This document shows, in pieces, positions 148 through 60,581 of a DNA stretch of 64,000 nucleotides. The stretch is from an uncultured Parachlamydiaceae bacterium (GTDB lineage Bacteria; Chlamydiota; Chlamydiia; Chlamydiales; Parachlamydiaceae): the NCBI GenBank assembly GCA_963780445.1, contig CAWACC010000008.1:12523-76522 (forward strand), read 5' to 3'. A program made the translations under genes and the position numbers. Numbering within the stretch: position 1 is the first letter of the stretch; each line of letters begins with the position of its first letter. The notes below the pieces were generated by a model, which worked only from the letters and a program-made list of their open reading frames with translations, was not told where the DNA came from and did no database searches.

Positions 148-1512
148 ATGGATATAATTCTTAAAGAGCTAGCCAAATCATTCAATGAATATTTTACTGT
201 TCTTGTTGTATTTCCTACCATCGCCTGTTTTGGAATTTATTTAACATACAAGCTGAAATGCATGCAGATTTCAAAAATGAAATTGGGCTTCCAATCGCTT
301 TTTCAGAAGAACACCGGAGGCGAAGGGCAAATCAGCTATTATGAAGCCATCGCCGCCGTCTTGGCCGGCAACTTCGGAACAGGAAACATCTCCGGCATGG
401 CCGTGGCCATGGCCACCGGAGGTCCCGGAGCCCTCGTCTGGATGTGGATAACCGCCTTTCTCGGATCTATCATTCAATACGCCAGCTGCCTCCTCTCCGT
501 CAAATACCGAAAACTGAATGCAGAAAATGAATACATTGGCGGCCCCATGTGCTACCTCCACGAAGGATTAGGATTTAAAACCTTGGCTGCCATCTTTGCC
601 ATCTTCACTGTATGCGGCGCCCTCACCGTAGGAAACTTAGCTCAGGTCAACTCCATCACCCTACCCCTCCAGTCGCTCGGCATGCCGCCCCTCCTGTGCG
701 GAGTGATCATTGCTGTCGTCGTGGCTTCAGTGACCTTGGGAGGAATCCGAAGAGTCGCTAAATTCGCCTCTATATTTGTGCCCTTTAAGGCATCCCTATA
801 TCTCGGCACAGCTTTAACTATTCTTCTCATCAACTATGAAAACATCCTACCAGCCCTATATCTCATGTTTGATTCTGCTTTTAACTTTACCTCCCTAGCC
901 GGCGGCGTCATGGGTTATAGTGTCGTCAAAACCATTACCACCGGATTGGACCGAGGGATCTTTGCCACCGATGCCGGCACCGGACTGGTGCCTATTTTGC
1001 AAGCCAATGCCAAAACCAAAAACCCTGTGATGGACGGCATCATTACTTTGGTCGCCCCTTTTCTCGTGATGATCGTTTGTACGACAACTGGGCTAGTACT
1101 CTTGGTCACCGGCGCCTGGCAGCATCCTGAGCTTAAAAGCACCAATATGGTCTCTTATGCCTTTGAGACTGGTTTGGGCACTGTTTTCGGCAAGTATATC
1201 GTGATTGTTTCGCTTGTTTTATTCGCCTATACCACCATTTTGGCCTGGGGATGCTGCGGAGAAAAAGCCGTCAGCTTTTTAGCCGGATCCAAAGCCGGGC
1301 GAATATTTCAGTTGGTTTATGTAGCTGCTATTCCCATTGGAGCCCTTGTCCATGTCGACTGGGTGTGGTTGCTGGCTGATATATCTATTTCGTTTATGCT
1401 GTTGACCAACCTCATCGGAGTGATAGGACTTTCCCACGAGGTCATTAAAGACAGCCACGAATACTTCCCTCCCAAAAAAGAACTTAAGGAAAAGGCAAGC
1501 CCGATCCAATAA
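148..1512 (+). CDS. Alanine/glycine:cation symporter (AGCS family) transporter
   Basis: 454-aa multi-TM ORF. The segment GNFGTGNISGMAVAMATGGPGALVWMW matches the conserved AGCS (Na+/alanine symporter) region. A purine-rich SD-like sequence lies before the ATG. Confidence 0.85.
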   Translation: MDIILKELAKSFNEYFTVLVVFPTIACFGIYLTYKLKCMQISKMKLGFQSLFQKNTGGEGQISYYEAIAAVLAGNFGTGNISGMAVAMATGGPGALVWMWITAFLGSIIQYASCLLSVKYRKLNAENEYIGGPMCYLHEGLGFKTLAAIFAIFTVCGALTVGNLAQVNSITLPLQSLGMPPLLCGVIIAVVVASVTLGGIRRVAKFASIFVPFKASLYLGTALTILLINYENILPALYLMFDSAFNFTSLAGGVMGYSVVKTITTGLDRGIFATDAGTGLVPILQANAKTKNPVMDGIITLVAPFLVMIVCTTTGLVLLVTGAWQHPELKSTNMVSYAFETGLGTVFGKYIVIVSLVLFAYTTILAWGCCGEKAVSFLAGSKAGRIFQLVYVAAIPIGALVHVDWVWLLADISISFMLLTNLIGVIGLSHEVIKDSHEYFPPKKELKEKASPIQ

Positions 1513-3158: not shown

Positions 3159-3581
3159 TCACATTATCAAAATCGTGAAGACGAATACAAACAGCGAAAA
3201 GGACTCAATAATCCCCACAGCAGCAAAGCACTTACCAAAAAGAGAGGGCTGCTTTGCGGTTGCTTGAATACCCGTAGCGCAAACTTTCCCCTGATACATG
3301 GAGGAAAACAAAAGGCCAAAACCGGCGCAAATGCCAATAATGACTCCGGCCAAAGGAGACACGCTTCCGGCTTTGATGGCATTTTTCATCAATATGGTAA
3401 GTAATAATCCATAAATAGACTGAGATGAGGGCGCTGCAGAGAACAATATAAACTTGGCATGCCCTTCTTCTACTCTGCTCATAACGGCATGTGAAGCGGC
3501 GCCGGCTATGAAGCATCCTATACTGCTTCCGATGGCGCTGATTGCTAGGACCAGTGCAGGTCCAGCCATATCAAAATTCAT
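3159..3581 (-). CDS. atpK: V-type ATPase proteolipid subunit K
   Basis: 140-aa hydrophobic, Gly/Ala-rich four-helix ORF with a conserved Glu in the last helix (GIIESFSLF). It is the last gene of the V-ATPase operon. Confidence 0.85.
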   Translation of the reverse strand: MNFDMAGPALVLAISAIGSSIGCFIAGAASHAVMSRVEEGHAKFILFSAAPSSQSIYGLLLTILMKNAIKAGSVSPLAGVIIGICAGFGLLFSSMYQGKVCATGIQATAKQPSLFGKCFAAVGIIESFSLFVFVFTILIM

Positions 3582-7465: not shown

Positions 7466-9253
7466 CTAAGAAACTTTGGCCATCATCTGTTCTATTTCCG
7501 CCCAGGCCTTCCGGTATTCCTCCCCTTCAAAGGCCATAAAGTTCATGTTTTTCAGCATGTTTTGCAGGCTCAAAAAATAGGACCTGGCTTCATCATGGTT
7601 GGAGAACTTGAAATGTTTGTCTAATATCTGGTGGATCAATCGAAATAGGGGGATCTGTCGTTTTAAAGGACAAAAAGCGTCTTCCTTGTCAAAAGCATTC
7701 TGCTGCAAGTAGCTGAAATCATACATCTCCGCTTTTAAATAGACAATCAAATCTTCCATGGAAGTCCCTTCTTCTCCCACGACTTCCATCCGTTTGCCGA
7801 TCTCATCCCCTTTCCTCAAAAATTCCGCGGCCTTGCGGACCATGCGGCCCCACCCTTCCACCTGTTTGTCCAGCTCCCTGCTGATGTCATCCACATATTT
7901 GGTCCACGATATCAGGGGGTTGATGGCGGGATAGCGGCGGGAATCGGAGCGCTCCCGGGATAATCCCAAAAAGGCGCCTACCACAGAAAGCGTAGCCTGC
8001 GTCACCGGCTCCTCAAAGTTGCCTCCGGCAGGCGAAACAGCTCCTCCAATGGTCACAGAGCCTTTATCGCCGTTGCGAAGCTCCAGCACGCCGGAGCGTT
8101 CATAAAACCCAGCTATACGGGATGCCAGGTAGGCGGGAAATGCTTCATCTCCAGGTATTTCCTCAAGGCGGCCGGACATCTCCCTCAAGGCCTGCGCCCA
8201 GCGGGAGGTGGAATCGGCCAGCAGGAGCACATCCAGCCCCATCTGGCGGTAATATTCGGCTATGGTCATGCCCATATAGATGGACGACTCCCTGGCAGCT
8301 ACAGGCATGGATGAAGTATTGCATATAATCACCGTGCGGGTCATCAAGGTCTCGCCGGTATTGGGATCGATCAGATGGGGGAACTCGCGCAAGACTTCCA
8401 CCACTTCGCCGGCGCGTTCTCCGCAGGCTGTCACGATGACGATATCGACATCGGAATACTTCGACAGATGGTGCTGAAGCACGGTTTTACCGGCTCCAAA
8501 AGGGCCTGGAGTACAGAAGGTGCCGCCTTTCATGATCGGAAACTGCGTATCGATAATCCGTTCACCCGTCACCATCATTTTGGTGGGCTTGACTTTCGTC
8601 CCTTGGAACAGGGCATTCTTGATGGGCCATTTTTGCGCCATCGTAAAGGAATACTCCACCCCAGCTTCATCTTTGGCTTTGGCTACAACAGTATCTACGG
8701 AGTAGGATCCGTGCTTGATTACCCAGGTCAGCTTGTACTGGCCAAAGAGGGTAAAGGGTACCATGATATGATGATGGAACCTCCCTTCCATGGTGGTCCC
8801 TAAAGTATCGCCTCGTTCGACTGCTTGTCCCACCTGAGCCTGCGGGATATAGTCCCACCGGTATTTCCGGTTAAGCGCATTGATGTAGATGCCTCGCGGT
8901 AGAAACAGGCCGGCCTGATGGGCCACTTCTTCCAAAGGATTTTGCAGGCCGTCAAAAATCGATGTCAGCAATCCGGGTCCGAGCTCTGCCTCGAGCAGTT
9001 CTCCGGTAAACTCCACCGGCGTCTGATATTCCACTCCTCGAGTATCCTCAAATACCTGGATCTTGGCTTCGTTTCCATTGATCTCTATCACCTCAGCCTT
9101 GAGCCGGATCCCATCCATGGATACCATGGCCACTTCGCCCTGCTTGATGTTACCCCTAAACTTCACCTGAAGCAAATTCCCAAAGGCTTTCTCAACATTC
9201 CCTTGGGCTCGGGCTTTTTGTTTCTCTTCTACAGCGGACTCGTTTTCACTCAT
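7466..9253 (-). CDS. atpA: V-type ATPase catalytic subunit A
   Basis: 595 aa with Walker [10 protein letters not shown] and typical A-subunit blocks ([26 protein letters not shown]). Confidence 0.93.
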
Positions 9254-10035
9254 GATTTTTCCTTCACTACGTTTTCTAAAATGTTTAATCCTTTTTCCTT
9301 ATCAAGGCGCATAAAACGCTCAATCAATATAAACCGGGCCATATAACCCAAAATATGGTTTATTGAAAAATAGTCAAATTGCAATCTGTCTTCAATCCAA
9401 TTAAATACATATTCCATCACAGCTTTTTGTAATTTTAACGGTGAACTGTCGTATAGTTGAAGCACCGGCTTGAAATCTTCGAACCCTTCGGGCAGTTCAA
9501 ATTCTTTGGAGTCTTTATGCTCCAGCAGCTGGGCCACGATATCGTCTTCCGGATCTTCATACTCAAATTCCACTTCCAGGTCCCTGCCTAGACGGCGGGC
9601 CCGGTACGCGGTCATGATCAGGCGGATATTCCTTTCGAAGGCCCTGTAATCGCGCAAAAATCCGGTGTTTTGAGAAGCTTCCTCAGCAAAATAGGTGGAT
9701 ATCACTTTGGAAAAATGGCGCTGCCGCTCTTCCGGGCTGTCATATTCATTCAAATAGTCATATAAATAGCCGGGCAGCTCATTTCCCTCTCGCGTCAGCA
9801 ACGCGTCCTCTAACTGGTTCTCATTGAGGGTCCCCCAATAATCCAAAGGTTCCTTTTTCCAATACGCACGCACGTTCCTCAGATCATAAAACCAGCGCAT
9901 ACGCCGCATCTTGTCAAAGTCGGAGGGAGTCAAGTTCTCCTGCAGCAACTGATCAAACTCGTGGAAGGAAATCTCCGGCTTCTCATCCAAAACCAGCTTC
10001 GGAAGCACAATCGATAAATAATAATACTGTTTCAT
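9250..10035 (-). CDS. DUF2764-like protein conserved in chlamydial V-ATPase operons (positional equivalent of C. trachomatis CT309)
   Basis: 261-aa ORF whose stop overlaps the atpA start by 4 nt. It holds the same position (between atpE and atpA) as the conserved hypothetical gene of Chlamydia V-ATPase operons. The family assignment is from memory and was not searched. Confidence 0.6.
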   Translation of the reverse strand: MKQYYYLSIVLPKLVLDEKPEISFHEFDQLLQENLTPSDFDKMRRMRWFYDLRNVRAYWKKEPLDYWGTLNENQLEDALLTREGNELPGYLYDYLNEYDSPEERQRHFSKVISTYFAEEASQNTGFLRDYRAFERNIRLIMTAYRARRLGRDLEVEFEYEDPEDDIVAQLLEHKDSKEFELPEGFEDFKPVLQLYDSSPLKLQKAVMEYVFNWIEDRLQFDYFSINHILGYMARFILIERFMRLDKEKGLNILENVVKEKS

Positions 10036-10050
10036 ATATCTCTGTCCCTA

Positions 10051-10404
10051 TAATGGATCCACAGTCATTTCCCCTGCAGGGGAAAATATAATCCCAGTCA
10101 TTTCCCCGGCAGGGGAAAATATAATCCCAGTCATTTCCCCGGCAGGGGAAAACGTGAATAGCCCCGTGTGAAGCGAGCGTAAGCGAGCGGAACGCGGGGT
10201 TATTGCATAATAAATATTGCGCCCCGGTAGGGGCGCAAGAATCCTTCCTTTCATCCAAATATTGTTTTGTGTTTTGTGTTTCGTGCGCCCCTGCCGGGGC
10301 GCAATCTTTACTATGCTGCAAACCCCGTGTTCCGCTCGCTGACGCTCGCTTCACACGGGGCTATTCACGTTTTCCCCTGCCGGGGAAATGACTGTGGACC
10401 CATT
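10051..10404. repeat. Roughly 355-bp nested palindromic element inside the V-ATPase operon
   Basis: Left terminus TAATGGATCCACAGTCATTTCCCCTGCAGGGGAAAA pairs with right terminus TTTTCCCCTGCCGGGGAAATGACTGTGGACCCATTA. Inner arms 10152-10201 and 10321-10369 are reverse complements, as are 10202-10240 and 10281-10321. Each arm contains GC-rich mini-hairpins (TTCCCC-TGCA-GGGGAA; GCGCCCC-GGTA-GGGGCGC). Confidence 0.9.
10062..10153. repeat. Three tandem 33-bp units (CAGTCATTTCCCCNGCAGGGGAAAATATAATCC) in the left arm only
   Basis: Unit starts at 10062, 10095 and 10128 give an exact 33-bp period. The right arm carries a single copy. Confidence 0.9.
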
Positions 10405-10421
10405 AAAATTCTGTTTTATCA

Positions 10422-22945: not shown

Positions 22946-23070
22946 TTCTTCACCACTGAGACACTGAGATCACTGAGAAAATATGAGATAATTGAGAGGG
23001 ATTATAATTTAGGCATCTATCTCATTATCTCATACCTTCTCAGTGATCTCAGTGGCTCAGTGGTGAAGAA
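22946..23070. repeat. Family-A (CACTGAG) palindromic element, copy 2
   Basis: TTCTTCACCACTGAGACACTGAGATCACTGAGAAAATATGAGATA ... TCTCATACCTTCTCAGTGATCTCAGTGGCTCAGTGGTGAAGAA. Confidence 0.9.
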
Positions 23071-23097: not shown

Positions 23098-24135
23098 ATG
23101 AACTCCCACCTTTTTAAAAATAAAACCGTCCTGATCACAGGGGGTACCGGCAGCTTTGGACGCTCTTTTGCCAAACGGCTCCTGACTGAAAATGAATGCA
23201 CCAAAGTGATCATCTTCAGCAGGGATGAATGGAAGCAATGGGAAATGCAACAATCAGATCCCATTTTCAAGCACCCCAAAATCCGCTATTTCTTGGGAGA
23301 CGTCCGTGACTCCACCCGCCTGATGCGGGCCTTCCACGAGGTCCACTATGTAATCCATGCCGCGGCCCTGAAGCAGGTGCCTGCTGCTGAATACAATCCC
23401 GGCGAATTCATCAAAACAAATGTATTGGGCGCCATGAACATCATCGAGGCCGCCATCGATTGCCAGGTGGAAAAAGTGATTGCCCTCTCTACAGACAAAG
23501 CCGTCAACCCCATCAACCTATATGGAGCCACCAAACTGTGCTCAGACAAACTGTTTATAGCCGGCAATGCCTATGTGGGCGCCAGAGGAATTCCCCGATT
23601 TTCAGTCGCCCGATATGGCAATGTTTCCGGAAGCCGCGGCAGCATTATCCCTTTTTGGGCCGGGCTGCTGGCAGAAGGAGCCGCATCGCTGCCCATTACA
23701 GACAGCCGCATGACACGTTTCTGGATCACCCTGGACCAAGCCATCGATTTTGTAGAAAAATGCTTTCAGGAAATGCGGGGAGGTGAAATTTTTGTACCGA
23801 AAATCCCCAGCATCCACATTGAAGACCTGGCAGAAGCCATGGCTCCTGGATTACCTAAAACCTATTGCGGAATCAGGGACGGAGAAAAATTGCATGAACT
23901 CATGATCAGCTCCGACGACGCAAGGCATACCATCGAATTCTCCGATCATTATGTCATCATTCCCGAAGCCTATATCCATGATCTCCATAAGCTCGCCAAA
24001 TTCTTGGATGGGCGGGAAGGTCAATTCACTCCGGAAGGCTTCTGTTATACCTCGAATAACAACACCCAGTGGCTGAAGGTTGAAGAACTGCGAAAACTAG
24101 TCAAAAGGGAAGGGACTAAAGGCAAAGGGACATAG
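23098..24135 (+). CDS. UDP-N-acetylglucosamine 4,6-dehydratase-like SDR (PseB/FlaA1/CapD family)
   Basis: 345 aa with Rossmann motif VLITGGTGSFG and catalytic YGATK. The last roughly 10 codons (REGTKGKGT*) are encoded by the family-B repeat. Confidence 0.8.
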   Translation: MNSHLFKNKTVLITGGTGSFGRSFAKRLLTENECTKVIIFSRDEWKQWEMQQSDPIFKHPKIRYFLGDVRDSTRLMRAFHEVHYVIHAAALKQVPAAEYNPGEFIKTNVLGAMNIIEAAIDCQVEKVIALSTDKAVNPINLYGATKLCSDKLFIAGNAYVGARGIPRFSVARYGNVSGSRGSIIPFWAGLLAEGAASLPITDSRMTRFWITLDQAIDFVEKCFQEMRGGEIFVPKIPSIHIEDLAEAMAPGLPKTYCGIRDGEKLHELMISSDDARHTIEFSDHYVIIPEAYIHDLHKLAKFLDGREGQFTPEGFCYTSNNNTQWLKVEELRKLVKREGTKGKGT

Positions 24136-24217
24136 GGACATAAGGGACCTAAGGGACTAAAGGGACAAAATTCATAATTTTATGTCCCTTAGGTCCCTTA
24201 GGTCCTTTAGGTCCCTT
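24105..24217. repeat. Family-B (AAGGGAC 9-mer) palindrome, copy 1
   Basis: The left arm has about 6 units of NNAAGGGAC, the loop is AAAATTCATAATTTTA, and the right arm is TGTCCCTTAGGTCCCTTAGGTCCTTTAGGTCCCTT. Confidence 0.9.
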
Positions 24218-25541: not shown

Positions 25542-26462
25542 ATGCAAAGTGTAAATACAAGTTTACCTATAGTTTATCCATCATTTCAAAACCTGGAAAG
25601 TGGATGGAACATGCTTCCTCAAGATCTATCAAACATTATTTTTACCTACGCTGGCGCGGAAAATCTTCCTTCGCTAGCTTTAACATGCAAAAATTGGTCC
25701 GTTCTAGCTGATAATAAAGAATTTAGAGAAAATATACGGCCTGCCGGAATTTTTGGGACTAAGGAATGGAAAGAAACTTTTGATGTCAATGCCGGTGAAG
25801 AACCTATTTTGCCAAGATGCGCCTACGCGGAAATGAAAGATGATAAGTTTCAGATCATTTTAGTTCCTGAAAAAGTTAAGGATGAGAAGGATGAAATTAA
25901 TCTATATAGTAAAGAAGGGATAGATAAACTATTAAAAAAAACAAAAAAATTAACTTTAAGGACAAATTGCGGTTTTATTTCAAATTCCTTCAAAATAGTC
26001 AAACCTGAGAAAACACACTGGCTATCTATTGCAAAAGACTATATAGATGGCGGTGATTATTACAATGGACAATTCCATGACATAGCAAAAAGACCGGTAT
26101 CTGTACCAACCGGATTTTTCGGGTGTGATGTAAAACTTATACAAGCAAAAAAAGGAGAAGACATTTCTAGGCTCATAGATACTATAATAACTCGTAGTAT
26201 ACGATATATCACAGAGCCTGTTTATGGACAAAAATTTTTAGTTGTTAAAGAAAAAAGAGATTCTAAAACTCATATATGCATCCATATTGATGGCAAGCTA
26301 TTGTGCGTTGGACATCCTGAAAATTATTCTTATGAAAATTGGACCTATAATATTACTTTGGCGAAAAGATATTTTGCTTCTGAACAAAATGCAATGGAAA
26401 TCTGTGATCCTGATAATGCAATTAAAAAAACGACCTTAACGACCTTAACGGTACGTCCTTAA
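25542..26462 (+). CDS. F-box-like protein with a C-terminal domain of unknown function (paralog family 1, copy 1)
   Basis: 306 aa with an F-box-like segment LPQDLSNIIFTYAGAENLPSLALTCKNWSVLADNKEFRENI. Nearly identical to 26700..27593 and related to 59724..60581. The last 13 aa (KKTTLTTLTVRP) are read from family-C/D repeats. Confidence 0.65.
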   Translation: MQSVNTSLPIVYPSFQNLESGWNMLPQDLSNIIFTYAGAENLPSLALTCKNWSVLADNKEFRENIRPAGIFGTKEWKETFDVNAGEEPILPRCAYAEMKDDKFQIILVPEKVKDEKDEINLYSKEGIDKLLKKTKKLTLRTNCGFISNSFKIVKPEKTHWLSIAKDYIDGGDYYNGQFHDIAKRPVSVPTGFFGCDVKLIQAKKGEDISRLIDTIITRSIRYITEPVYGQKFLVVKEKRDSKTHICIHIDGKLLCVGHPENYSYENWTYNITLAKRYFASEQNAMEICDPDNAIKKTTLTTLTVRP

Positions 26463-26600
26463 AAAGTCATGGCACCACATGACTTTTTATGAGAAAGTAG
26501 CCAGGGCGTCCCGCCCTGGCACAAGCCGAGACGCCTGGTTACCTTTTCATGCTTCGCCTTGTCATAACTTTTAGGACGTACCAATAACGTCCTTAAGAAC
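26425..26600. repeat. Family-C units followed by family-D element, copy 2
   Basis: AAAACGACCTTAACGACCTTAACG followed by GTACGTCCTT...AGGACGTACCAATAACGTCCTTAAGAAC. Relative to copy 1 it has an extra hairpin AAAAAGTCATGGCACCACATGACTTTTT. Confidence 0.85.
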
Positions 26601-26699
26601 ATTTTTATTGTAGATTCTTAAATCCAAATTTGGTAATATACATGTTCAAGAATATGAAAAAATAAAAAATATAACCCTAAAAATTAATAAGGAGATTTT

Positions 26700-27593
26700 A
26701 TGCAAAGTATAAATACAAGTTTACCTATAGTTTATCCATCATTTCAAAACCTGGAAAGTGGATGGAACACACTTCCTCAAGATCTATCAAACAATATTTT
26801 TACCCAAGCTGGCGCGGAAAATCTTCCTTCGCTAGCTTTAACATGCAAAAATTGGTCAGTTCTAGCTGATAATAAAGAATTTAGAGAAAGTATACGGCCT
26901 GCCGGAATATTTGGCGCTAAGGAATGGAAAGAAACTTTTGATGTAGATGCCGGTGAAGAACCTAATTTGCCACGATGCGCCTACGCGGAAATGAAAGATG
27001 ATAACTTTCAGATCATTTTAGTTCCTGAAAAAGTTAAGGATGAGAAGGATGAAATTAATCTATATAGTAAAAAAGGGATAGATAAACTATTTAAAAAAAC
27101 AAAAAAATTAACTCTAAGGACAAATTGCCCTTTTATTTCAAATTGCTTCAAAATAATCAATCCCGAGAAAACACACTGGCTATCTATTGCAAAAGACTAT
27201 ATAAACACTGGTGGCTATTACAATGGTCAATTCCATGACATAGCAAAAAGACCGGTACACGTACGAATGGGATCTTGTGTTGTAAAACACATTCAGGCAA
27301 AAAAAGGAGAAGATATTTCTAGGCTCATAGATACTATAATAGCGCAAAGTATAAAATATATCAAAAAGCCAGATTTTAAAATGAAATTGTTCGTTGTTAA
27401 AGAAAAAATAGATTCTAAGACCCATATATGCGTCCATATTTACTTTGACATGCTTCATGGAATGGAATTGTGCGTTGGACATCCTGAAAATTATTCTTAT
27501 GAAAATTGGACCTATAATATTACTTTAGCAAAAAGATATTTTGCTCCTGAAGAAAATGCAATGGAAATCTGTGATCCTGATAATGCAATTTAA
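26700..27593 (+). CDS. F-box-like protein (paralog family 1, copy 2)
   Basis: 297 aa, a tandem duplicate of 25542..26462 (start-to-start period 1158 bp) with the same N-terminus and F-box-like motif. It stops at a TAA just before the family-C repeat. Confidence 0.65.
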   Translation: MQSINTSLPIVYPSFQNLESGWNTLPQDLSNNIFTQAGAENLPSLALTCKNWSVLADNKEFRESIRPAGIFGAKEWKETFDVDAGEEPNLPRCAYAEMKDDNFQIILVPEKVKDEKDEINLYSKKGIDKLFKKTKKLTLRTNCPFISNCFKIINPEKTHWLSIAKDYINTGGYYNGQFHDIAKRPVHVRMGSCVVKHIQAKKGEDISRLIDTIIAQSIKYIKKPDFKMKLFVVKEKIDSKTHICVHIYFDMLHGMELCVGHPENYSYENWTYNITLAKRYFAPEENAMEICDPDNAI

Positions 27594-27662
27594 AAAACGA
27601 CTTTAACGACCTTCACGACGATAATAAAAATGTCGTTAAGGTCGTTATTGTCGTTTGTCGTT
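27594..27662. repeat. Family-C (AACGAC) palindrome
   Basis: AAACGACTTTAACGACCTTCACGACGAT / loop / GTCGTTAAGGTCGTTATTGTCGTTTGTCGTT. Confidence 0.85.
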
Positions 27663-28502: not shown

Positions 28503-28665
28503 AAAGGGACGAAAGGGACCTAAAGGACATAAGGAACCTAAAGGACATAAGGGACAAAACGACAAACAACGATAACGACCTGAACGACAATAACGACCTT
28601 AACGACAAACGACTTGTTTATTGTCGTCGTTAAAGTCGTTATTGTCGTTAAAGTCGTTTGTCGTT
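28503..28665. repeat. Family-B direct array (28503-28555) abutting a family-C palindrome (28556-28665)
   Basis: AAAGGGACGAAAGGGACCTAAAGGACATAAGGAACCTAAAGGACATAAGGGAC, then AACGAC-unit arms around the loop TTGTTTATT. Lies immediately downstream of the 5S rRNA. Confidence 0.9.
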
Positions 28666-28678
28666 AAATAAAAAAAAA

Positions 28679-28794
28679 GCCTGGCGGCGACCTACTCTCC
28701 CACACTCTTGTGTGCAGTACCATCGGCGATGAAAGGCTTAACTTCTGAGTTCGGAATGGGGTCAGGTGTTTCCCTTTCTCTATTGCCACCAGGC
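28679..28794 (-). rRNA. rrf: 5S ribosomal RNA
   Basis: The reverse complement reads GCCTGGTGGCAATAGAGAAAGGGAAACACCTGACCCCATTCCGAACTCAGAAGTTAAGCC...GGGAGAGTAGGTCGCCGCCAGGC, followed by a T-run. Confidence 0.93.
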
Positions 28795-29023
28795 AAGAAT
28801 ATCTTCGAATCCCTAGGGCTCTGTGCCCTAGTTGCCTAGGGCGATGCCCTAGGCTTCTACATACCAGGCTTTCAGCCTGATGATCGGATTTTGAATTCAC
28901 TTACAAAAATCAACGCTTGAGGTTATTCTTCACACACTCATTACAACTGTGATTTTACTAAACTTGCGACCACTCTTTCTTTATAGACGCTTTCTTAAGG
29001 TCCTTATTCACGTCTTCTTAAAA

Positions 29024-34472: not shown

Positions 34473-34623
34473 AAGGGTAAGGGACCAAAGGGACGAAAGG
34501 GACCAAAGGGACCAAAGGGACGAAAGAGACATAAGGGACATAAGGGACATACAAAATATGCTGTGATTCCTTACGCCCTTTCGTCCTTTATATCCCTTTT
34601 GCCCCTTATGTCCCTTTGGTCCC
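34473..34623. repeat. Family-B (AAGGGAC 9-mer) palindrome, largest copy
   Basis: Eight consecutive 9-bp units (GTAAGGGAC CAAAGGGAC GAAAGGGAC CAAAGGGAC CAAAGGGAC GAAAGAGAC ATAAGGGAC ATAAGGGAC), a loop, then degenerate inverted units ...CCCTTATGTCCCTTTGGTCCC. Confidence 0.92.
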
Positions 34624-35379
34624 AGTTGCCTTTTGCAATAATGCTGTGATCACTTCCGGATTATTATCATATATTTTTTTTACAATTTCATTTAGCAGTG
34701 TTCTAGCTCCCTTATGATTTTTTTCTACAGCTTTTTTAAGCCAGAACAAAGCCTTTTGAATTCTAGCCATGCAATCTTTTTTGGTTTCATTATCTGGCAC
34801 CCACGCACCTCCTTGATCAAGCAATCGCTTTCCCAAAAAGTAGGTAGCTTCCAGGTGCCCTTTATTTGCTGCCTGCTCTAACCAGTAGAGAATTACCTCG
34901 ACTTTAGGTCCATCCTCAAAATCATTCGTGTATATGATATAACCATAATAGGCAGTATAATACAGCCATAATGCTTTAGGGTTTTCAAAAGGATCTCCAT
35001 CTTCATTCTCCACATATCTTTTGGCCAATATATATAGGGCATAATAATCCTCCGGGTTTGCGACCACATCGAGATGATGCATGCATTTAAAATACTGCCT
35101 TGCAGCTTTTTCAGTTACATAGTATCTTCCATAAGCATCTTTCAGCTCTCTTACATTTGATGAATATAAATACACAGTACGGGACAAATGCTGAAACCAG
35201 TACTTCATATTGGATTGATTCCTTGCATGGATCCTATCGTTTACTATTTTTGAAATGAGACAGCATTTTGCCAGGTGCCGGGGTGTCAGATATCCGAAAA
35301 TTTTGCTTCTGAGCTCTTCTGGAAGGGATACAAAGTCGTAAACTATCTGGTTAGGCGGCTGGGCATTGTAACTAATCAT
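34606..35379 (-). CDS. F-box / Sel1-like repeat protein
   Basis: 257 aa with the canonical F-box LPEELRSKIFGYLTPRHLAKCCLISKIVNDRI and Sel1-like repeats (WLEQAANKGHLEATYFLGKRLL; WLKKAVEKNHKGARTLL). The C-terminal ...TGTKGT* is encoded by the family-B repeat. Confidence 0.75.
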   Translation of the reverse strand: MISYNAQPPNQIVYDFVSLPEELRSKIFGYLTPRHLAKCCLISKIVNDRIHARNQSNMKYWFQHLSRTVYLYSSNVRELKDAYGRYYVTEKAARQYFKCMHHLDVVANPEDYYALYILAKRYVENEDGDPFENPKALWLYYTAYYGYIIYTNDFEDGPKVEVILYWLEQAANKGHLEATYFLGKRLLDQGGAWVPDNETKKDCMARIQKALFWLKKAVEKNHKGARTLLNEIVKKIYDNNPEVITALLQKATGTKGT

Positions 35380-42514: not shown

Positions 42515-43027
42515 ATGGAAACTAGGTTATTGGTCATTAAAACCCATCTTAAACCAGCTATAAAAAGGACAGCCTTAGTCAGAGGTACTTTGCTGGGTGG
42601 ACTGGGAGCTGTTATTATGGTTTTAGGCGGAATATATATTCCTCTCAATTCACTTGCAGTATGGGGCCTTCCGCTATTTCTGGCGGGTTTCGGTCTGATC
42701 ACCCTAGGCCTTCTCCCCTATCGAAAACTGTTGCGGCAAGAACAGCAGCCCTGTGAACTGCATCTTTATGAGGCCAGGCTGTTATTTATACACAAAAGGA
42801 TTCTTCTCACCTTGCCTCTGGCCAGTATAGAAAAAATGGAATTTCAAACCCTTCGAAACATGGAAGGTATTACTGTATATCTTAAAAATCCTGTACCAGA
42901 GAAAATAGTGCTTCACAGGCAGCGGCTTTCTGCAAAGCAATTGTATTATTTTAAAAACGCCCTATTTTTCCCTAATTTCAGCCATAGATCTTACGAAGAA
43001 TTAATGAAAGGGACCAAAGGGACATAA
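42515..43027 (+). CDS. Hypothetical membrane protein
   Basis: About 170 aa with two N-terminal TM helices. The C-terminal MKGTKGT* is encoded by a family-B repeat. Start placed at the first ATG; the track uses a TTG at 42509. Confidence 0.45.
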   Translation: METRLLVIKTHLKPAIKRTALVRGTLLGGLGAVIMVLGGIYIPLNSLAVWGLPLFLAGFGLITLGLLPYRKLLRQEQQPCELHLYEARLLFIHKRILLTLPLASIEKMEFQTLRNMEGITVYLKNPVPEKIVLHRQRLSAKQLYYFKNALFFPNFSHRSYEELMKGTKGT

Positions 43028-43051
43028 ATTTGTTGTCCCTTAGGTCCCTTT
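43007..43051. repeat. Family-B hairpin between convergent genes
   Basis: AAAGGGACCAAAGGGACATAAATTTGTTGTCCCTTAGGTCCCTTT fills the whole convergent spacer, in a bidirectional-terminator-like position. Confidence 0.85.
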
Positions 43052-43052
43052 C

Positions 43053-45577: not shown

Positions 45578-45786
45578 GGGACTAAAGGGACCAAAGGAAC
45601 ATAAAGGTTTACCACTGAGCCAGTGAGATCACTGAGAATGTATGAGATAATTGAGAGGAGTCTGAAACATATGTTAAAAGACGGACTTAATAGTATAGGA
45701 GTTGAATCTAACTCGCCCTATCTCATACCTTCTCTGTGATCTCACTGGCTCAGTGGTAAACCATGTCTTTTATGTCCCGTCTTTCA
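45575..45786. repeat. Composite element: family-A copy 4 (45608-45760) nested between family-B arms
   Basis: TAAGGGACTAAAGGGACCAAAGGAACATAAAGG | TTTACCACTGAGCCAGTGAGATCACTGAGAATGTATGAGATAATTGAGAGGAGTCTGAAACATATGT ... CTCACTGGCTCAGTGGTAAACC | ATGTCTTTTATGTCCCGTCTTTC. Confidence 0.9.
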
Positions 45787-48250: not shown

Positions 48251-49711
48251 ATGAATCAAAATGTTTTTATAAGTAAATTTAATTCACTTAATCAGGCAGT
48301 TGATAGTGGTGAAATAATAAAAATTGCTAAAAATGGCGAATTAAAACACAAATGTGTGTCCGGGAATTTTTTCGAAAGACTCCGTGGACGCGTGGTCCGT
48401 GTTATTAAAGAAATATCGAGTTTTCTGACTGGAGAAGATTTACTGGCCAATGTCCGTATTAAAAACATAGCGCAGAAAACTTTTGATCTATGTAATAAAT
48501 ACTCTGAAGAACATAACGTGTCCTTAAGCCAACAAGAAGCTGATTCGGCTATTAAATTTTTGGAAAAGCTAAAAAATAAAGCCAAATCTGATATCTCAAA
48601 ACTGAATGTGGATATTTGTGTATTAAAGATACAGGCTCTTATGCTACAGCAAATTAACAATGAAGCGAACAAAACCCCTCCACCCGTGAGGCCGCAATTG
48701 CCGGATAACTTGCCTTCATTTGGCAGCACTACAAAAACAATTATATCTGATACTGCTGCAGCAAATACACCCACAATTACCACGACGACGACAACTCCAG
48801 CAACGCCAATAATTCCTACCCCCATCCCAACCCCACCCCCAACAGGAGCTATGCTACCCCCACCGCCTCCCCCTATGGGAATGCTATCTTCAAAAACCAC
48901 ATTGACACCTGAACAACAATGGAAACATGACCAAGAGACCAAGTTAAAAAGGAATCAACTGGAAAGGGCCAATCCAAACGCGTTTTACTGCCAGATACCC
49001 GTGGATGCCTTAACTAAAAGCCTGTTAACTGAACACTTGAATACACTCGGTTTCCTCAAAATAAATTCAAATCTCAACAAAGAAGAAAAAAAATATCTGG
49101 AAGAAAAGGAAAAAGAACTCAAATCCCGAATGGAATCCCGAAAAGAACCGATGAGCCAAAACAGCTCTGATTTTAAATACCAACTTTCTAGACTGACGAA
49201 TGAAGAACTTTCCATATTGATAGCCATATATTTCTCTACCCTAGAGAAAAAGGAAGAGAATTCCATCTATAACGAATTTAAATATCTGGTGGAAGGGAGT
49301 TTGAATAATTCGCCTGCATTGCTGTCAGGGCCGATAGGCCAACTTTTTATGGCAAATAAAACGCAATGGATTGAATTGTTAACTAGCAGTGGCGGCTGTT
49401 TAAGCGCTTTTCTCAAACTGTTAGAGGCAAGAATGAAAGGAACCATCCAGGAGCCGCAATATAAAGCCCAACCCTACGACCCCGCGAAGGTACGTCGCCA
49501 GGAAAAAGAGAAAACTCTACCTAACAATACTGCAACAACTGAAGGAAAACCAGAAATAAAGGATGAAATCATCCATCATAAGCCTTTGCATCATGTGGAT
49601 AAACAAGCGCAAGATCCAGTAGAAAAAACCCCTGAAGAAAATGAAGTCGAACGGATAAGAAGACTAATTAAAGAGCAAAACAAACGCGCCAACGGAAAAC
49701 CAAACGGCTAA
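48251..49711 (+). CDS. Proline/threonine-rich hypothetical protein (candidate effector)
   Basis: 486 aa. The central tract is TPPPVRPQLPDNLP...TPTITTTTTTPATPIIPTPIPTPPPTGAMLPPPPPPMGML, and the flanks are charged and helical. No enzymatic motif recognised. Confidence 0.5.
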   Translation: MNQNVFISKFNSLNQAVDSGEIIKIAKNGELKHKCVSGNFFERLRGRVVRVIKEISSFLTGEDLLANVRIKNIAQKTFDLCNKYSEEHNVSLSQQEADSAIKFLEKLKNKAKSDISKLNVDICVLKIQALMLQQINNEANKTPPPVRPQLPDNLPSFGSTTKTIISDTAAANTPTITTTTTTPATPIIPTPIPTPPPTGAMLPPPPPPMGMLSSKTTLTPEQQWKHDQETKLKRNQLERANPNAFYCQIPVDALTKSLLTEHLNTLGFLKINSNLNKEEKKYLEEKEKELKSRMESRKEPMSQNSSDFKYQLSRLTNEELSILIAIYFSTLEKKEENSIYNEFKYLVEGSLNNSPALLSGPIGQLFMANKTQWIELLTSSGGCLSAFLKLLEARMKGTIQEPQYKAQPYDPAKVRRQEKEKTLPNNTATTEGKPEIKDEIIHHKPLHHVDKQAQDPVEKTPEENEVERIRRLIKEQNKRANGKPNG

Positions 49712-49715
49712 AAGT

Positions 49716-49903
49716 AAAAGGGACCAAAGGGACATAGTTTACCACTGAGCCACTGAGATCACTGAGAAGGTATGAGATAATTGAGAGGAGTCTGAAACAT
49801 ATGTCAAAAAGACAGACTAAAACAGAGCCTAACCCTCTCTATCTCATACCTTCTCAGTGATCTCAGTGGCTCAGTGGTAAATTATATCCCTCTGGTCCCT
49901 TAT
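49716..49903. repeat. Composite element: family-A copy 5 (49738-49882) nested between family-B arms
   Basis: AAAAGGGACCAAAGGGACATAG | TTTACCACTGAGCCACTGAGATCACTGAGAAGGTATGAGATAATTGAGAGGAGTCTGAAACATATGT ... CAGTGATCTCAGTGGCTCAGTGGTAAATT | ATATCCCTCTGGTCCCTTAT. Same orientation and core as copy 4. Confidence 0.9.
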
Positions 49904-49946
49904 TTTTTTCTTTTCAATATCATCTTCTCTTTTATATAATGTGACC

Positions 49947-57676: not shown

Positions 57677-57989
57677 GATACAACTCCTATATACATCTTA
57701 ATTATAGCAAGAGTGATACTTTTATACAAGTATCCATTTTTATTCTCAATTTCCAGCAATTCCCGCTAAAAAAATACATTTTCCAAAAGTATCTTGAAAC
57801 GTCAAACAACAGAAATCTTTTCGTAAACTTTCAAACACCCTCGGCGGCAAGATATTGTTTATCGGAAAAAGGCATCCATATCCTGTCACCGAAGGCGCCC
57901 TGCCCATCCTGTTTTTTTCCTGGAGTTTCTGCTCAATTACCGTACATATTCAAAATTAATATAAAACTTGCTATAAAGTGAAAAAAAAT

Positions 57990-58035
57990 AGGGCATAAGG
58001 GACAAAAACTAATTTGATGTCCCTTATGTCCCTTT
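57990..58035. repeat. Family-B hairpin immediately upstream of the 58055 gene's SD
   Basis: AGGGCATAAGGGACAAAAACTAATTTGATGTCCCTTATGTCCCTTTA, followed by TCTTTTAGGAGGTAAATTATG. Confidence 0.85.
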
Positions 58036-58054
58036 ATCTTTTAGGAGGTAAATT

Positions 58055-59723: not shown

Positions 59724-60581
59724 CTAGCCAAACGACTTCCGAGCCAAGGCAAAGCCAAGGTCCTTATGTGGATTGTCAGTGGCGTTGAAGACAACAAGGC
59801 CGGAAAGCGCAAAACCTAAACCGATTCGTAATCCTCGAGTCTGCTCATTAACACGTACCCAATTGTATTGAAGTTTAGCCCAATCCCATATAAAATTGCG
59901 CTCTCCAGATCGGACATATTCCATATACATGCTGATAGCTGTATCCATAAATCCTGAAATAGTCATACCAGGTACATTTTTATTTATCTCCTTGGCAAAC
60001 TTTTGCTGATCTTCATAACTTCTACCTTGGCCTATGATTTCTTTGCTTATCAACACCCAATGCGGCTTTTCAAGATTTCTTTTTTCTTGATAAGCTTCTT
60101 TCCAGGATCCTGGATTAAAACCAATTTTATTTCCTTTTGTTGAATTTTCCACCAGTTTGCTAATAACCTCCAGCCTATCCAATGGAACTTTTTTGACCGC
60201 CTCGATATCCACAGATGTTACATTTTCTTGCATTACCTTGACTGTTTCAGGGATGAAAGTAAGGTAGTAGTTCCCCCTTTTCATATCTCCATAGACCCGC
60301 CTTGGCAGTGGGAGTTCTTCTCCGGCATCCACTCCAATATATTCTTTCCATTCGCGGCTGCCAAAAGCGGTGGCTGGGCGTATCGTTTCTCGCAAGACCT
60401 TATCATCGGCCAAATTCCGCCACTCGTTGCAAACCAAAGCCAGCTGGTGAAGATCTGCTTTCGCATTTTGGAAAATAATGCGAGTGACATCCAATGGAAG
60501 TAGACTGGTTTTACCTATGGGATCTACTAGAGGCTGTCCGCTTTGAGAATCTATTCCTGTAACAACGTTACTTATATTCAT
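59724..60581 (-). CDS. F-box-like protein (paralog family 1, divergent third member)
   Basis: 285 aa. LPLDVTRIIFQNAKADLHQLALVCNEWRNLADDKVLRETIRPATAFGSREWKEYIGVDAGEELPLP aligns with the 25542 and 26700 proteins. Confidence 0.6.
   Translation of the reverse strand: MNISNVVTGIDSQSGQPLVDPIGKTSLLPLDVTRIIFQNAKADLHQLALVCNEWRNLADDKVLRETIRPATAFGSREWKEYIGVDAGEELPLPRRVYGDMKRGNYYLTFIPETVKVMQENVTSVDIEAVKKVPLDRLEVISKLVENSTKGNKIGFNPGSWKEAYQEKRNLEKPHWVLISKEIIGQGRSYEDQQKFAKEINKNVPGMTISGFMDTAISMYMEYVRSGERNFIWDWAKLQYNWVRVNEQTRGLRIGLGFALSGLVVFNATDNPHKDLGFALARKSFG

What the first reader, a model, noticed from the sequence alone, without database searches (positions are those of the whole stretch)
10051..10404. 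A roughly 355-bp nested palindrome splits the V-ATPase operon between atpE and the DUF2764 gene
The 386-nt spacer inside an otherwise tightly packed operon, where neighbouring genes overlap or sit under 20 nt apart, is almost entirely one long imperfect palindrome. Its three tiers of reverse-complementary arms are 10051-10086 with 10370-10404, 10152-10201 with 10321-10369, and 10202-10240 with 10281-10321. Each arm also contains a GC-rich mini-hairpin of the CCCC-NNNN-GGGG type. If it is transcribed with the operon it would form an extended duplex of well over 100 bp, which would be a likely RNase III target, attenuator or processing site separating atpE from the catalytic genes. As DNA it looks like a foldback or MITE-type insertion. 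I saw no second copy in this window.
Basis: partly seen in the sequence, partly recalled or inferred. Interest (0 to 1): 0.72.

Follow-up and report, generated by a model that had tools for sequence, protein, structure and literature searches.

The report
Palindromic repeat inserted in V-ATPase operon
The 355-bp palindrome is real and is a species-specific insertion of two inverted copies of a three-hairpin repeat unit that also occurs in other environmental chlamydiae, so it is selfish-type repeat DNA sitting inside an important operon rather than a conserved regulator.

Summary
Window 10051-10405 is a nested imperfect palindrome that fills the 386-nt atpE-DUF2764 spacer. All genes are on the minus strand. 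Fold z-scores are -23 (RNA) and -22 (DNA).

It is an insertion. In about 75 other chlamydial loci, including relatives at 59-82% DUF2764 identity, this spacer is -8 to 52 nt (two outliers, 120 and 189). Only an assembly with an identical DUF2764 gene also carries the element.

The palindrome is not one MITE-like body. It is an inverted pair (92% identical) of a ~114-nt unit: hairpin A, a linker ending in AGCCC, hairpin B, then hairpin C. One side also has two extra tandem 33-nt copies of module A.

Covariance models find 12 such units in 7 chlamydial genomes plus the window. They occur as singletons and as both kinds of inverted dimer, with compensatory stem changes. Another roughly 300-bp palindrome has the same layout (L049).

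This matches REP/BIME/REPIN-type mosaic repeats. However, the 5' tag is NNAG rather than GTAG, and no transposase was found in the held DNA. Host copy number could not be measured. RNA-level effects (RNase III cleavage, partial termination, stabilising atpE mRNA) are inferred only.

One oddity is unexplained: related hairpins are about 19-fold enriched just downstream of atpK.

The parts
10051..10405 (.). Whole nested imperfect palindrome. It is an inverted doublet of the repeat unit plus short outer arms.
   Evidence: Inverted repeats I1-I3. Fold z-scores of -23.5 and -22.4. The outermost long-range pair is 10405-10051.
10129..10242 (+). Repeat unit copy 1 (hairpin A, linker ending ATAGCCCC, hairpin B, AT-rich linker, hairpin C).
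   Evidence: Scores 123 bits with model R1 and 90.6 bits with R2. A profile built without the window sequences also finds it, at E = 1.9e-10.
10279..10393 (-). Repeat unit copy 2, inverted, 92% identical to copy 1. On the operon mRNA this copy is read in the A-B-C sense.
10062..10160 (+). Three tandem 33-nt copies of module A (CAGTCATTTCCCCGGCAGGGGAAAATATAATCC). The third is the A part of unit 1, so two are extra, and this makes the palindrome asymmetric.
   Evidence: Direct-repeat family D1. TRF period 33, 2.9 copies, 96% matches.
10160..10199 (+). Hairpin B of unit 1. It has an AG tag, an 8-bp stem (CCCCGTGT/ACGCGGGG), a GAA/GGA internal loop, an apical GCGAGC-GTAA-GCGAGC, and a 10-nt tandem repeat.
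   Evidence: Stem covariation with L018, L006, L049 and others (helix 2 is 96.9% paired, and 5 of 8 pairs show double changes).
10323..10362 (-). Hairpin B of unit 2.
10217..10238 (-). Hairpin C of unit 1. Read in the operon sense it is a 9-bp GC-rich stem followed by UAUUUAUUAU, which is terminator-like.
   Evidence: terminator-like site on the minus strand, 10238-10217.
10284..10304 (+). Hairpin C of unit 2.
10243..10278 (.). Non-complementary centre between the two units. The TGTTTTG x3 micro-repeat (TRF 10263-10285) begins here.
   Evidence: The centre is unpaired in the centroid structures.
10036..10050 (-). 15 nt between the foot of the palindrome and the DUF2764 start codon (UAGGGACAGAGAUAU-AUG). 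It lies outside the stem, so the ribosome-binding region is left free.
10422..11051 (-). Upstream gene, the V-ATPase E-like subunit. Its real start is probably the ATG at 11045. The stop codon TAA is at 10424-10422, 16 nt before the palindrome.
   Evidence: The Pfam match to vATP-synt_E is weak (E = 0.0037), so the identification rests on synteny.
9250..10035 (-). Downstream gene, DUF2764 (subunit C/d-like). It overlaps atpA by 4 nt.
   Evidence: Pfam PF10962, E = 4e-58. ORF table.

Best explanation
The palindrome is a non-coding, non-autonomous interspersed repeat of the REP/BIME/REPIN type. It was inserted recently into the atpE-DUF2764 junction of one environmental chlamydial species.

**Anatomy.** Its building block is a ~100-115-nt unit of three GC-rich hairpins: A, then a linker ending in NNAG-CCC, then B, then C. 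Here two units lie as an inverted 'head-to-head' pair with the AG tags on the outside. The pair can fold either as six local hairpins or as one long stem. The 33-nt A module has additionally been amplified in tandem on one side.

**Shown:**
- The anatomy is as described.
- The sequence is an insertion.
- The unit belongs to a family across Chlamydiota, with structure-preserving covariation.
- The unit occurs as singletons and as both types of inverted dimer.
- No transposase is present in the held DNA.

**Inferred about origin.** Units are copied in trans. The agent could be an enzyme that recognises hairpin DNA (as RAYT/IS200-type Y1 transposases do for REPs), or recombination or template switching at hairpins. 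The inverted pair and the 33-nt amplification are by-products of such events.

**Inferred about consequences.**
- The insert is co-transcribed with the operon.
- The nascent RNA forms stable hairpins, or a duplex of about 107 bp.
- That structure can be cut by RNase III and can block 3' exonucleases.
- The C' hairpin with its U-rich tail can terminate a fraction of transcripts.
- Together these would uncouple atpE from the downstream genes and favour atpE mRNA, as intercistronic REPs do in E. coli malE-malF (my own knowledge).
- The DUF2764 ribosome-binding region stays outside the stem, so downstream translation can continue.
For: **It is an insertion.**
- The atpE-DUF2764 spacer is 6, 35 and 9 nt in relatives L002, L003 and L004.
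- It is an overlap or 0 nt in L076 and L077, and 7-9 nt in L079-L081.
- It is -8 to 52 nt in nearly all of about 70 GTDB Chlamydiota loci.
- Only L001, with a 100% identical DUF2764, carries the element end.

**It belongs to a family.**
- L018 holds the same A-B-C modules in the same linear order but with inverted nesting.
- Models R1 and R2 find 12 units: window x2, L018 x2, L006, L026, L038, L049 x3, L061 and L065.
- A profile built without the window still finds both window units.
- L049 2547-2843 is a second roughly 300-bp palindrome with the identical A B C / C' B' A' layout, also between co-directional genes.

**Its structure is constrained.** 79% of cells are paired against 61.6% in shuffles. 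18 of 23 pairs show double changes. None of 500 shuffles reach the observed values, and slid controls reach only 33-52%.

**It fits the REP pattern.** REPs are described as occurring as singletons, as head-head and tail-tail dimers, and as clusters. Their dimers fold separately or as one large stem-loop, sometimes inside longer palindromes (PMC3733652).

**The genome is rich in such repeats.** The window holds at least three other multi-copy families of modular intergenic palindromes, some nested in one another.

**Nothing mobile is encoded nearby.** Pfam scans of window ORFs find no transposase. tblastn finds no RAYT or GIY-YIG.
Against: - Copy number in the host genome is unknown. There is no second site in 64 kb. 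The genome, metagenome and viral pattern scans found no further copy of the same subfamily.
- The canonical REP tag GTAG is replaced by ATAG, TTAG, ACAG or GAAG.
- No cognate transposase has been seen, so mobility is inferred from distribution alone.
- Eight of about 63 loci carry the related hairpin at one particular place, downstream of atpK. A purely selfish, randomly inserting repeat does not predict that.
- All RNA-level effects are untested.
Confidence: 0.7

Rival explanations
1. It is a classical MITE. On this reading it is a deletion derivative of an insertion sequence, defined by fixed terminal inverted repeats, flanked by a target-site duplication (for example TA, as for IS630/Tc1-like elements or Correia elements), and moved as a whole by the parent transposase.
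For: - The outermost arms 10051-10086 / 10370-10405 are 36 nt long and 94% complementary.
- Read in the operon sense, the ends are TA|ATGGGTCCACAG...CTGTGGATCCAT|TA, so a TA duplication is possible.
- The size (355 bp), the lack of coding capacity and the intergenic site all fit.
Against: - The TA cannot be separated from the inverted repeat with a single copy.
- Comparison with empty sites gives no clear duplication.
- Related elements do not share these ends. L018 has the same modules nested the other way round. L049 has a different outer module. Single units exist alone.
- No second copy with the same termini was found in the window, the loci or the genome-contig scan.
- No transposase is nearby.
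Confidence: 0.12
2. It is a selected cis-regulatory RNA of the V-ATPase operon. On this reading it acts as an attenuator, RNase III processing site or stability element that sets the ratio of subunit E to the other subunits. It would derive from the operon's own 3'-end structure, which was copied into the first intercistronic junction.
For: - Related AGCCC-stem hairpins or whole units lie within 450 nt downstream of atpK in 8 loci from different clades. This is about 19 times the density in the rest of the held DNA. The genes further downstream are unrelated between loci.
- The stems covary.
- A sense-strand C' hairpin is followed by a U-rich tail.
- The ribosome-binding region of DUF2764 is left free.
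Against: - The junction is empty in every relative down to 82% protein identity, so nothing at this position is conserved.
- Half of the palindrome is the antisense of the unit.
- Units occur in either orientation after atpK (minus in L006, plus in L049, L038, L026 and L065, both in L018). This argues against a strand-specific RNA function.
- Copies exist away from the operon (L049 2547-2843, L061 148-250).
Confidence: 0.12
3. It is an assembly or amplification artefact, such as a fold-back chimera from long-read or MDA data.
For: Long perfect palindromes are a known artefact class (my own knowledge). The short-read contig L001 breaks inside the element.
Against: - The arms are imperfect (92% over the units) and unequal, with 3 against 1 copies of the 33-nt module.
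- The duplicated material is a stand-alone non-coding module, not flanking genes.
- An independent assembler (Logan, ERR11718638) reproduces the proximal 70 nt exactly.
- Homologous units exist in seven other genomes.
- The contig break is expected from the tandem and palindromic k-mers alone.
Confidence: 0.02

Closest known systems
REP sequences, REP dimers / REPINs and BIMEs (Enterobacteria, Pseudomonas and others)
   Same: - GC-rich imperfect hairpins carry a short conserved tag at the 5' foot.
- They occur as singletons, as head-head and tail-tail inverted dimers with structured spacers, and as tandem clusters.
- The dimers can fold separately or as one large stem-loop (PMC3733652).
- The repeats are mosaic and modular.
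- They lie at operon ends and in intercistronic sites.
- Copies within a genome are similar, while stems covary between genomes.
   Different: - The unit is three hairpins of about 100-115 nt, not one hairpin of 20-40 nt.
- The tag is ATAG, TTAG, ACAG or GAAG, not GTAG or CGTC.
- No RAYT has been seen.
- Copy number appears low in the DNA available.
- The host phylum is Chlamydiota. Literature searches found no paper describing such a repeat family in this phylum.
Correia / NEMIS elements of Neisseria, and ERIC elements of Yersinia
   Same: These are 100-150-bp palindromic inserts, often inside operons and co-transcribed. Their long RNA hairpins are cut by RNase III or alter mRNA stability, and Correia elements are flanked by TA (my own knowledge). 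The element here also has possible TA flanks and a long sense-strand hairpin.
   Different: - No sequence relationship was established. A resemblance of the end TATAATGGAT to the Correia end is recalled from memory only.
- The ends here are not conserved among family members.
- The element is more than twice as long and is built from two composite units.
Pneumococcal BOX elements (boxA-boxB(n)-boxC)
   Same: Both have a modular A-B-C architecture with a variable number of tandem copies of one short module, fold into a stable stem-loop, and are intergenic and non-coding (my own knowledge). Here the 33-nt A module is present three times on one side and once on the other.
   Different: The sequences and host phylum are unrelated. 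In BOX elements the middle module is the variable one, whereas here it is the outer one. The element here is an inverted doublet of the whole A-B-C unit.
Rickettsia palindromic elements (RPE)
   Same: Both are palindromic repeats that proliferate in an obligate intracellular bacterium and insert close to or into essential genes without destroying them (PMC3733652, and my own knowledge).
   Different: RPEs often insert in frame inside coding sequences. This element lies between genes and leaves both reading frames intact.

Membership tests
REP / REPIN (RAYT-dependent) | Short GC-rich imperfect palindrome that forms a stem-loop | tested here: met
   Hairpins A, B and C were each predicted. Stems covary across 12 units.
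REP / REPIN (RAYT-dependent) | Conserved GTAG (or CGTC) tetranucleotide at one foot of the hairpin | tested here: not met
   The 5' foot of hairpin B carries ATAG, TTAG, ACAG or GAAG. Only the AG followed by CCC is invariant. A GTAG does occur inside the A and C loops (CCGGTAGG), but that is not the canonical position.
REP / REPIN (RAYT-dependent) | Occurs as singletons and as inverted dimers (head-head and tail-tail) able to form one long hairpin | tested here: met
   - Window and L049 2547-2843: tags outside.
- L018: tags inside.
- Singletons: L006, L026, L038, L049 (after atpK), L065.

REP / REPIN (RAYT-dependent) | Tens to hundreds of copies per genome | tested here: inconclusive
   There is one site in the 64-kb window, two sites in 17 kb of L049, and two in 10.6 kb of L061. 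The rest of each genome could not be searched.
REP / REPIN (RAYT-dependent) | A cognate Y1 (HUH) transposase gene, usually flanked by the repeats | not testable with these tools
   None is present in the window (Pfam). tblastn with an E. coli RayT sequence recalled from memory found none in the window or the loci then held, L001-L078. The genomes themselves were not available.
MITE | Terminal inverted repeats shared by all copies of the family | tested here: not met
   The window ends (TAATGGRTCCACAGTCA) are absent from L018, L049 and all other loci. Those elements have other outer sequences.
MITE | Target-site duplication flanking the insert | tested here: inconclusive
   A TA or ATA duplication is possible, but with one copy it cannot be separated from the palindrome itself. 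Empty sites in relatives have diverged too far to settle it.
MITE | A parent insertion sequence with the same ends | not testable with these tools
   No transposase was found in the held DNA.
Intrinsic terminator / attenuator | GC-rich hairpin followed directly by a U-run in the sense orientation, conserved at this position | tested here: not met
   Only the C' hairpin (10238-10217) has a U-rich but interrupted tail, UAUUUAUUAU. The foot of the whole palindrome has none. The position is empty in all relatives.
Any curated RNA family (Rfam 15) | Score at or above the family's gathering threshold | tested here: not met
   There was no hit at the element in gathering mode. In E-value mode only far sub-threshold generic hairpin (miRNA-type) matches appeared.

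The most novel reading that the evidence does not exclude
The three-hairpin 'AGCCC' unit may not be merely selfish DNA. It could be an ancient functional module that marks the 3' end of the V-ATPase operon across deeply diverged chlamydiae, for example as a terminator, an mRNA-stability element or a protein-binding structure. On this reading the module occasionally seeds copies elsewhere. In this species an inverted pair of it was co-opted into the first intercistronic junction, where it would tune subunit E relative to the rest of the complex.

A further possibility concerns the apical part of hairpin B (GT-GAA-GCGAGC-GNNA-GCGAGC-GGA-AC). The same core sits on a different basal stem next to a GIY-YIG nuclease gene in a high-GC soil bacterium. 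It might therefore be a graftable hairpin module shared across phyla.
Probability: 0.15. Interest if true: 0.6.

Novelty: new member of a known kind. Interest (0 to 1): 0.4.

Why it matters
- **New repeat family for the phylum.** Interspersed palindromic repeats are well studied in Proteobacteria, Neisseria, pneumococci and Rickettsia. The literature searches here found no description of such a family in Chlamydiota. This locus, with the 12 units recovered, defines one, and model R2 can now be run on whole genomes.
- **A natural test case for operon expression.** The insert sits inside an operon for a multi-subunit ATPase whose genes are otherwise coupled by overlaps. It therefore offers a natural experiment on how a roughly 107-bp RNA duplex affects operon expression in an obligate intracellular bacterium.
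- **A testable hint of function.** The recurrence of the related hairpin at the 3' end of the same operon in many clades suggests either a function or an insertion hot spot.
- **A practical point for assemblies.** Such palindromes break short-read assemblies, as in L001, and generate spurious ORFs such as 9983-10354.

Tried and rejected
**Searches that found nothing**
- An exact-pattern scan of genome contigs with the A module found 0 hits. The source species is therefore not among the GTDB representatives.
- A metagenome scan with the B core gave one hit, the unrelated high-GC contig L005.
- A viral scan found 0 hits.
- blastn of the element and of the L005 region against plasmids found no match.
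- A protein-database search with the spurious 123-aa ORF that spans the element, meant to fish out other copies, returned nothing.
- Rfam gave nothing meaningful in gathering or E-value mode.
- tblastn for the L005 GIY-YIG protein found nothing in the window or L001-L075.
- tblastn for a RayT sequence recalled from memory found nothing in the window or L001-L078.
- Pfam scans of 30 window ORFs found no transposase.
- Searches of the closest-clade loci (L002-L004, L076, L077, L079-L081) with filters off found no units.
- Literature searches for chlamydial REP, MITE or palindromic repeats, and for GIY-YIG-associated REPs, found nothing relevant.

**Readings considered and rejected**
- CRISPR-like array: the 33-nt repeats have no spacers.
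- Inverton: the arms take up almost the whole element and leave only a roughly 36-nt centre.
- Internal promoter: the only sigma-70-like match on the sense strand overlaps the DUF2764 start codon, and the number of matches is no higher than in shuffles.
- Coding ORF across the element: it is a palindrome artefact with no homologues.

**What the L001 contig break does not show**
The break inside the element is not evidence of multiple copies. The tandem and palindromic k-mers are enough to explain it.

Full report
**Observation.** The repeat finder reports three tiers of arms: 10128-10201/10321-10394 (74 nt, 97% complementary), 10196-10241/10280-10325 (46 nt, 83%) and 10051-10086/10370-10405 (36 nt, 94%). 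The small CCCC-NNNN-GGGG hairpins and the middle module occur nowhere else in the 64-kb window, where about 0.1 or fewer matches are expected by chance. The 386-nt spacer folds to -260 kcal/mol as RNA in the operon sense (z = -23.5) and -162 kcal/mol as DNA (z = -22.4). The RNA structure has 107 long-range pairs, an uninterrupted 48-bp helix and only two G-U pairs. The operon is on the minus strand (atpK 3159-3581, atpI, atpD, atpB, atpA 7466-9253, DUF2764 9250-10035, atpE 10422-11051). One side of the palindrome carries three tandem 33-nt copies of the outer module (10062-10160) against one on the other side.

**It is an insertion.** The organism is an environmental member of the Chlamydiota. 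This follows from the V-ATPase operon layout, the F-box, ankyrin and RasGEF proteins, and the closest loci being chlamydial MAGs. I collected the same operon from relatives at 82, 79, 78, 74, 70, 67, 66, 61 and 59% DUF2764 identity, and from about 70 GTDB representative genomes. In all of them atpE and DUF2764 overlap or lie at most 52 nt apart, apart from two outliers of 120 nt and 189 nt, the latter including a run of N. None has a palindrome there. Only a Logan assembly with a 100% identical DUF2764 (L001) carries the element. That contig starts inside the 33-nt repeats and matches the window exactly over 70 nt. The insert is therefore specific to this species and younger than its split from the 82% relative. 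The imperfect, unequal arms and the independent assembly argue against a fold-back artefact.

**What the palindrome is made of.** A short-word blastn of the element against all fetched loci hit L018, a MAG whose DUF2764 is only 41% identical. Immediately after atpK, L018 has a roughly 300-bp nested palindrome built from the same three modules in the same linear order: A, a small hairpin; B, AGCCCCGT..GAAGCGAGCG..AGCGAGCGGAA..GCGGGG; and C, GCGCCCCGGTAGNGGGCGC. The nesting is reversed, though. The window reads A B C [centre] C' B' A', whereas L018 reads C' B' A' [centre] A B C. The repeated entity is therefore a ~114-nt A-B-C unit, and both loci are inverted pairs of it. The window's two units are 92% identical to each other and 78-80% identical to the L018 units. 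L018's own two units are 81% identical to each other.

**The family.** A covariance model of the unit (R1), and then a broader one (R2), found 12 units:
- window x2;
- L018 x2;
- L006, 16 nt after atpK, on the minus strand;
- L049, 72 nt after atpK;
- L038, directly after atpK;
- L065, 40 nt after atpK;
- L026, about 313 nt after atpK;
- L061 148-250;
- an inverted pair at L049 2591-2687 / 2705-2800.

The L049 pair forms a palindrome of about 300 bp (2547-2843, -216 kcal/mol) between two co-directional genes. Its layout is the same as the window's. A profile built without the window sequences still finds both window units, at E of about 1e-10. Across the 12 units, 79% of pair cells are standard pairs against 61.6% in shuffles. 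18 of 23 pairs show changes on both sides. None of 500 shuffles reach the observed values, and sliding the partners drops pairing to 33-52%. Hairpin B is 96.9% paired. The only invariant single-stranded feature is AG immediately before the CCC that opens stem B (ATAG, TTAG, ACAG or GAAG). The genomes that carry units fall in at least five separate clades of an AtpA tree, and their sister taxa often lack them.

**Classification.** The family shows several features described for REP sequences, REP dimers/REPINs and BIMEs (PMC3733652):
- singletons;
- head-head and tail-tail inverted dimers that can fold as one long stem;
- tandem amplification of a module;
- mosaic outer modules that differ between genomes;
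- similarity within a genome combined with covarying stems between genomes;
- sites at operon ends or between cistrons.

The window genome is also full of other modular palindromes: a CACTGAG heptamer family, a GGGACnnnn 9-mer family and an AACGACnnn family. They are sometimes nested in one another, as at 49710-49909. Two defining REP features are not satisfied or could not be tested. The tag is not GTAG. No Y1 transposase was seen in the held DNA. A classical MITE is less likely. Family members do not share the window's ends, single units exist alone, and a TA or ATA target duplication cannot be separated from the palindrome itself. No Rfam family matches.

**How it probably works.** Shown:
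- the anatomy;
- the insertion;
- the family and its structural constraint;
- a 15-nt unpaired stretch carrying the likely ribosome-binding region between the stem foot and the DUF2764 AUG;
- a 9-bp GC-rich C' hairpin followed by UAUUUAUUAU in the sense orientation.

Inferred: units are copied in trans by a hairpin-recognising enzyme, or by recombination or template switching. The insert is co-transcribed with the operon. Its hairpins, or the roughly 107-bp duplex, then act as an RNase III substrate, as a barrier to 3' exonucleases and as a leaky terminator. This would uncouple atpE from the downstream genes and favour atpE mRNA, by analogy with intercistronic REPs and Correia or ERIC elements (my own knowledge). 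Folding restricted to local pairs gives -135.6 kcal/mol, against -260 for the global fold. Both states are therefore stable, and co-transcriptional folding may favour the local hairpins. No sense-strand promoter is evident.

**Unexplained.**
1. An unbiased scan for 'AGCCC + perfect stem of at least 7 bp' found 28 hits in 1.29 Mb. Eight lie within 450 nt downstream of atpK, in six loci (L006, L018, L020, L026, L038, L061). L049 and L065 carry bulged versions there as well, making eight loci. The density there is about 19 times that elsewhere, and the genes further downstream are unrelated. Either an ancestral 3'-end module of the operon seeds copies elsewhere, or the site is an insertion hot spot.
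2. The apical 31 nt of hairpin B in the window and L018 recur on a different basal stem in L005. L005 is a high-GC soil contig. There the hairpin lies beside a 97-aa GIY-YIG ORF that is flanked by two copies of the hairpin start. This may be chance in a low-complexity motif.
3. The near-80% nucleotide identity between the window and L018 units contrasts with 41% protein identity in the neighbouring gene. That implies horizontal transfer or strong constraint.

**Verdict.** The insertion and foldback reading is right in substance. The MITE label and the idea of a conserved regulatory device are not supported. RNA-level consequences remain plausible but untested. This is a new member, in a new phylum, of the known class of interspersed palindromic repeats. 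Interest is moderate. It would rise if the link to the 3' end of the V-ATPase operon proves functional.

Noticed in passing
window 15659-15798, 22946-23070, 45606-45762, 49727-49880 (and a fragment near 39150): A second family of long intergenic hairpins, built from CACTGAG heptamer repeats (ACCACTGAGCCACTGAGATCACTGAGAA..TATGAGAT). There are four to five copies in 64 kb. None occurs in the closest relatives' loci.
   Followed up: partly
window 24134-24217, 34479-34634, 43006-43052, 57981-58041, plus single hits near 28506, 45578 and 49720: Arrays of a 9-nt unit, GGGACnnnn, arranged as inverted blocks that form hairpins. They often sit directly beside members of the other palindrome families, giving a mosaic arrangement.
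   Followed up: partly
window 15803-15845, 26426-26606, 27595-27656, 28558-28665: A third family of inverted arrays of a 9-nt unit, AACGACnnn. One lies just beyond the 5S rRNA gene at the 3' end of the rRNA operon, and two flank the paralogous F-box-like genes.
   Followed up: no
window 49710-49909: A composite nested palindrome (70-nt arms, 91% complementary). The outer arms are GGGAC-type and the inner arms are CACTGAG-type. This suggests that one palindromic element inserted into the centre of another.
   Followed up: partly
L049 2547-2843: A roughly 300-bp nested palindrome (-216 kcal/mol) in a distant chlamydial MAG. Its layout, A B C [centre] C' B' A', is the same as the window element's, with an extra outer module. 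It lies between two co-directional genes, 7 kb from the V-ATPase operon.
   Followed up: yes
L006 9409-9505; L018 16854-17152; L020 ~17042-17083; L026 17169-17264; L038 16158-16248; L049 16724-16826; L061 ~10054-10082; L065 16946-17048: The three-hairpin unit, or at least its AGCCC-stem hairpin, lies just downstream of atpK, the last V-ATPase gene, in eight loci from different chlamydial clades. This is about 19 times denser than elsewhere in the held DNA. The downstream neighbours are not homologous between loci.
   Followed up: partly
L005 955-1467 (metagenome contig Ga0310890_10169125): In a high-GC soil bacterium, a 97-aa GIY-YIG nuclease ORF (1106-1399, minus strand) is flanked by two copies of a hairpin start. 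The loop of that hairpin shares a 31-nt core with hairpin B of the chlamydial element (one mismatch), on a different basal stem.
   Followed up: partly
L018 17099-17449: The ORF just after the L018 palindrome encodes only the C-terminal half of a peptide deformylase (the QHEVDHLDG motif). The N-terminal half is missing where the palindrome lies. This may be a gene truncated by the repeat.
   Followed up: no
window 28775-28885 (minus strand), in the 23S-5S rRNA spacer: A weak match to repeat model R2 (18 bits, E about 0.004). It has three consecutive GC hairpins (CAGGC-TGAAA-GCCTG, CCTAGGGC-ATC-GCCCTAGG, CTAGGGC-ACAGA-GCCCTAG). It could be an rRNA processing structure or a distant relative of the unit.
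   Followed up: no
window 25542-26462 and 26700-27593: Two tandem paralogous genes with nearly identical N-terminal halves. They resemble the F-box-like proteins elsewhere in the window (34606-35379, 59724-60581). A RasGEF-domain protein with a long proline-rich region lies at 11248-13593. These eukaryote-like genes are typical of amoeba-associated chlamydiae.
   Followed up: no
window 9983-10354 (minus strand): A 123-aa open frame runs through the palindrome and contains the peptide repeat FPCRGNDWDYI three times. It is a by-product of the repeat and has no homologues in the protein database, but gene callers could annotate it.
   Followed up: yes
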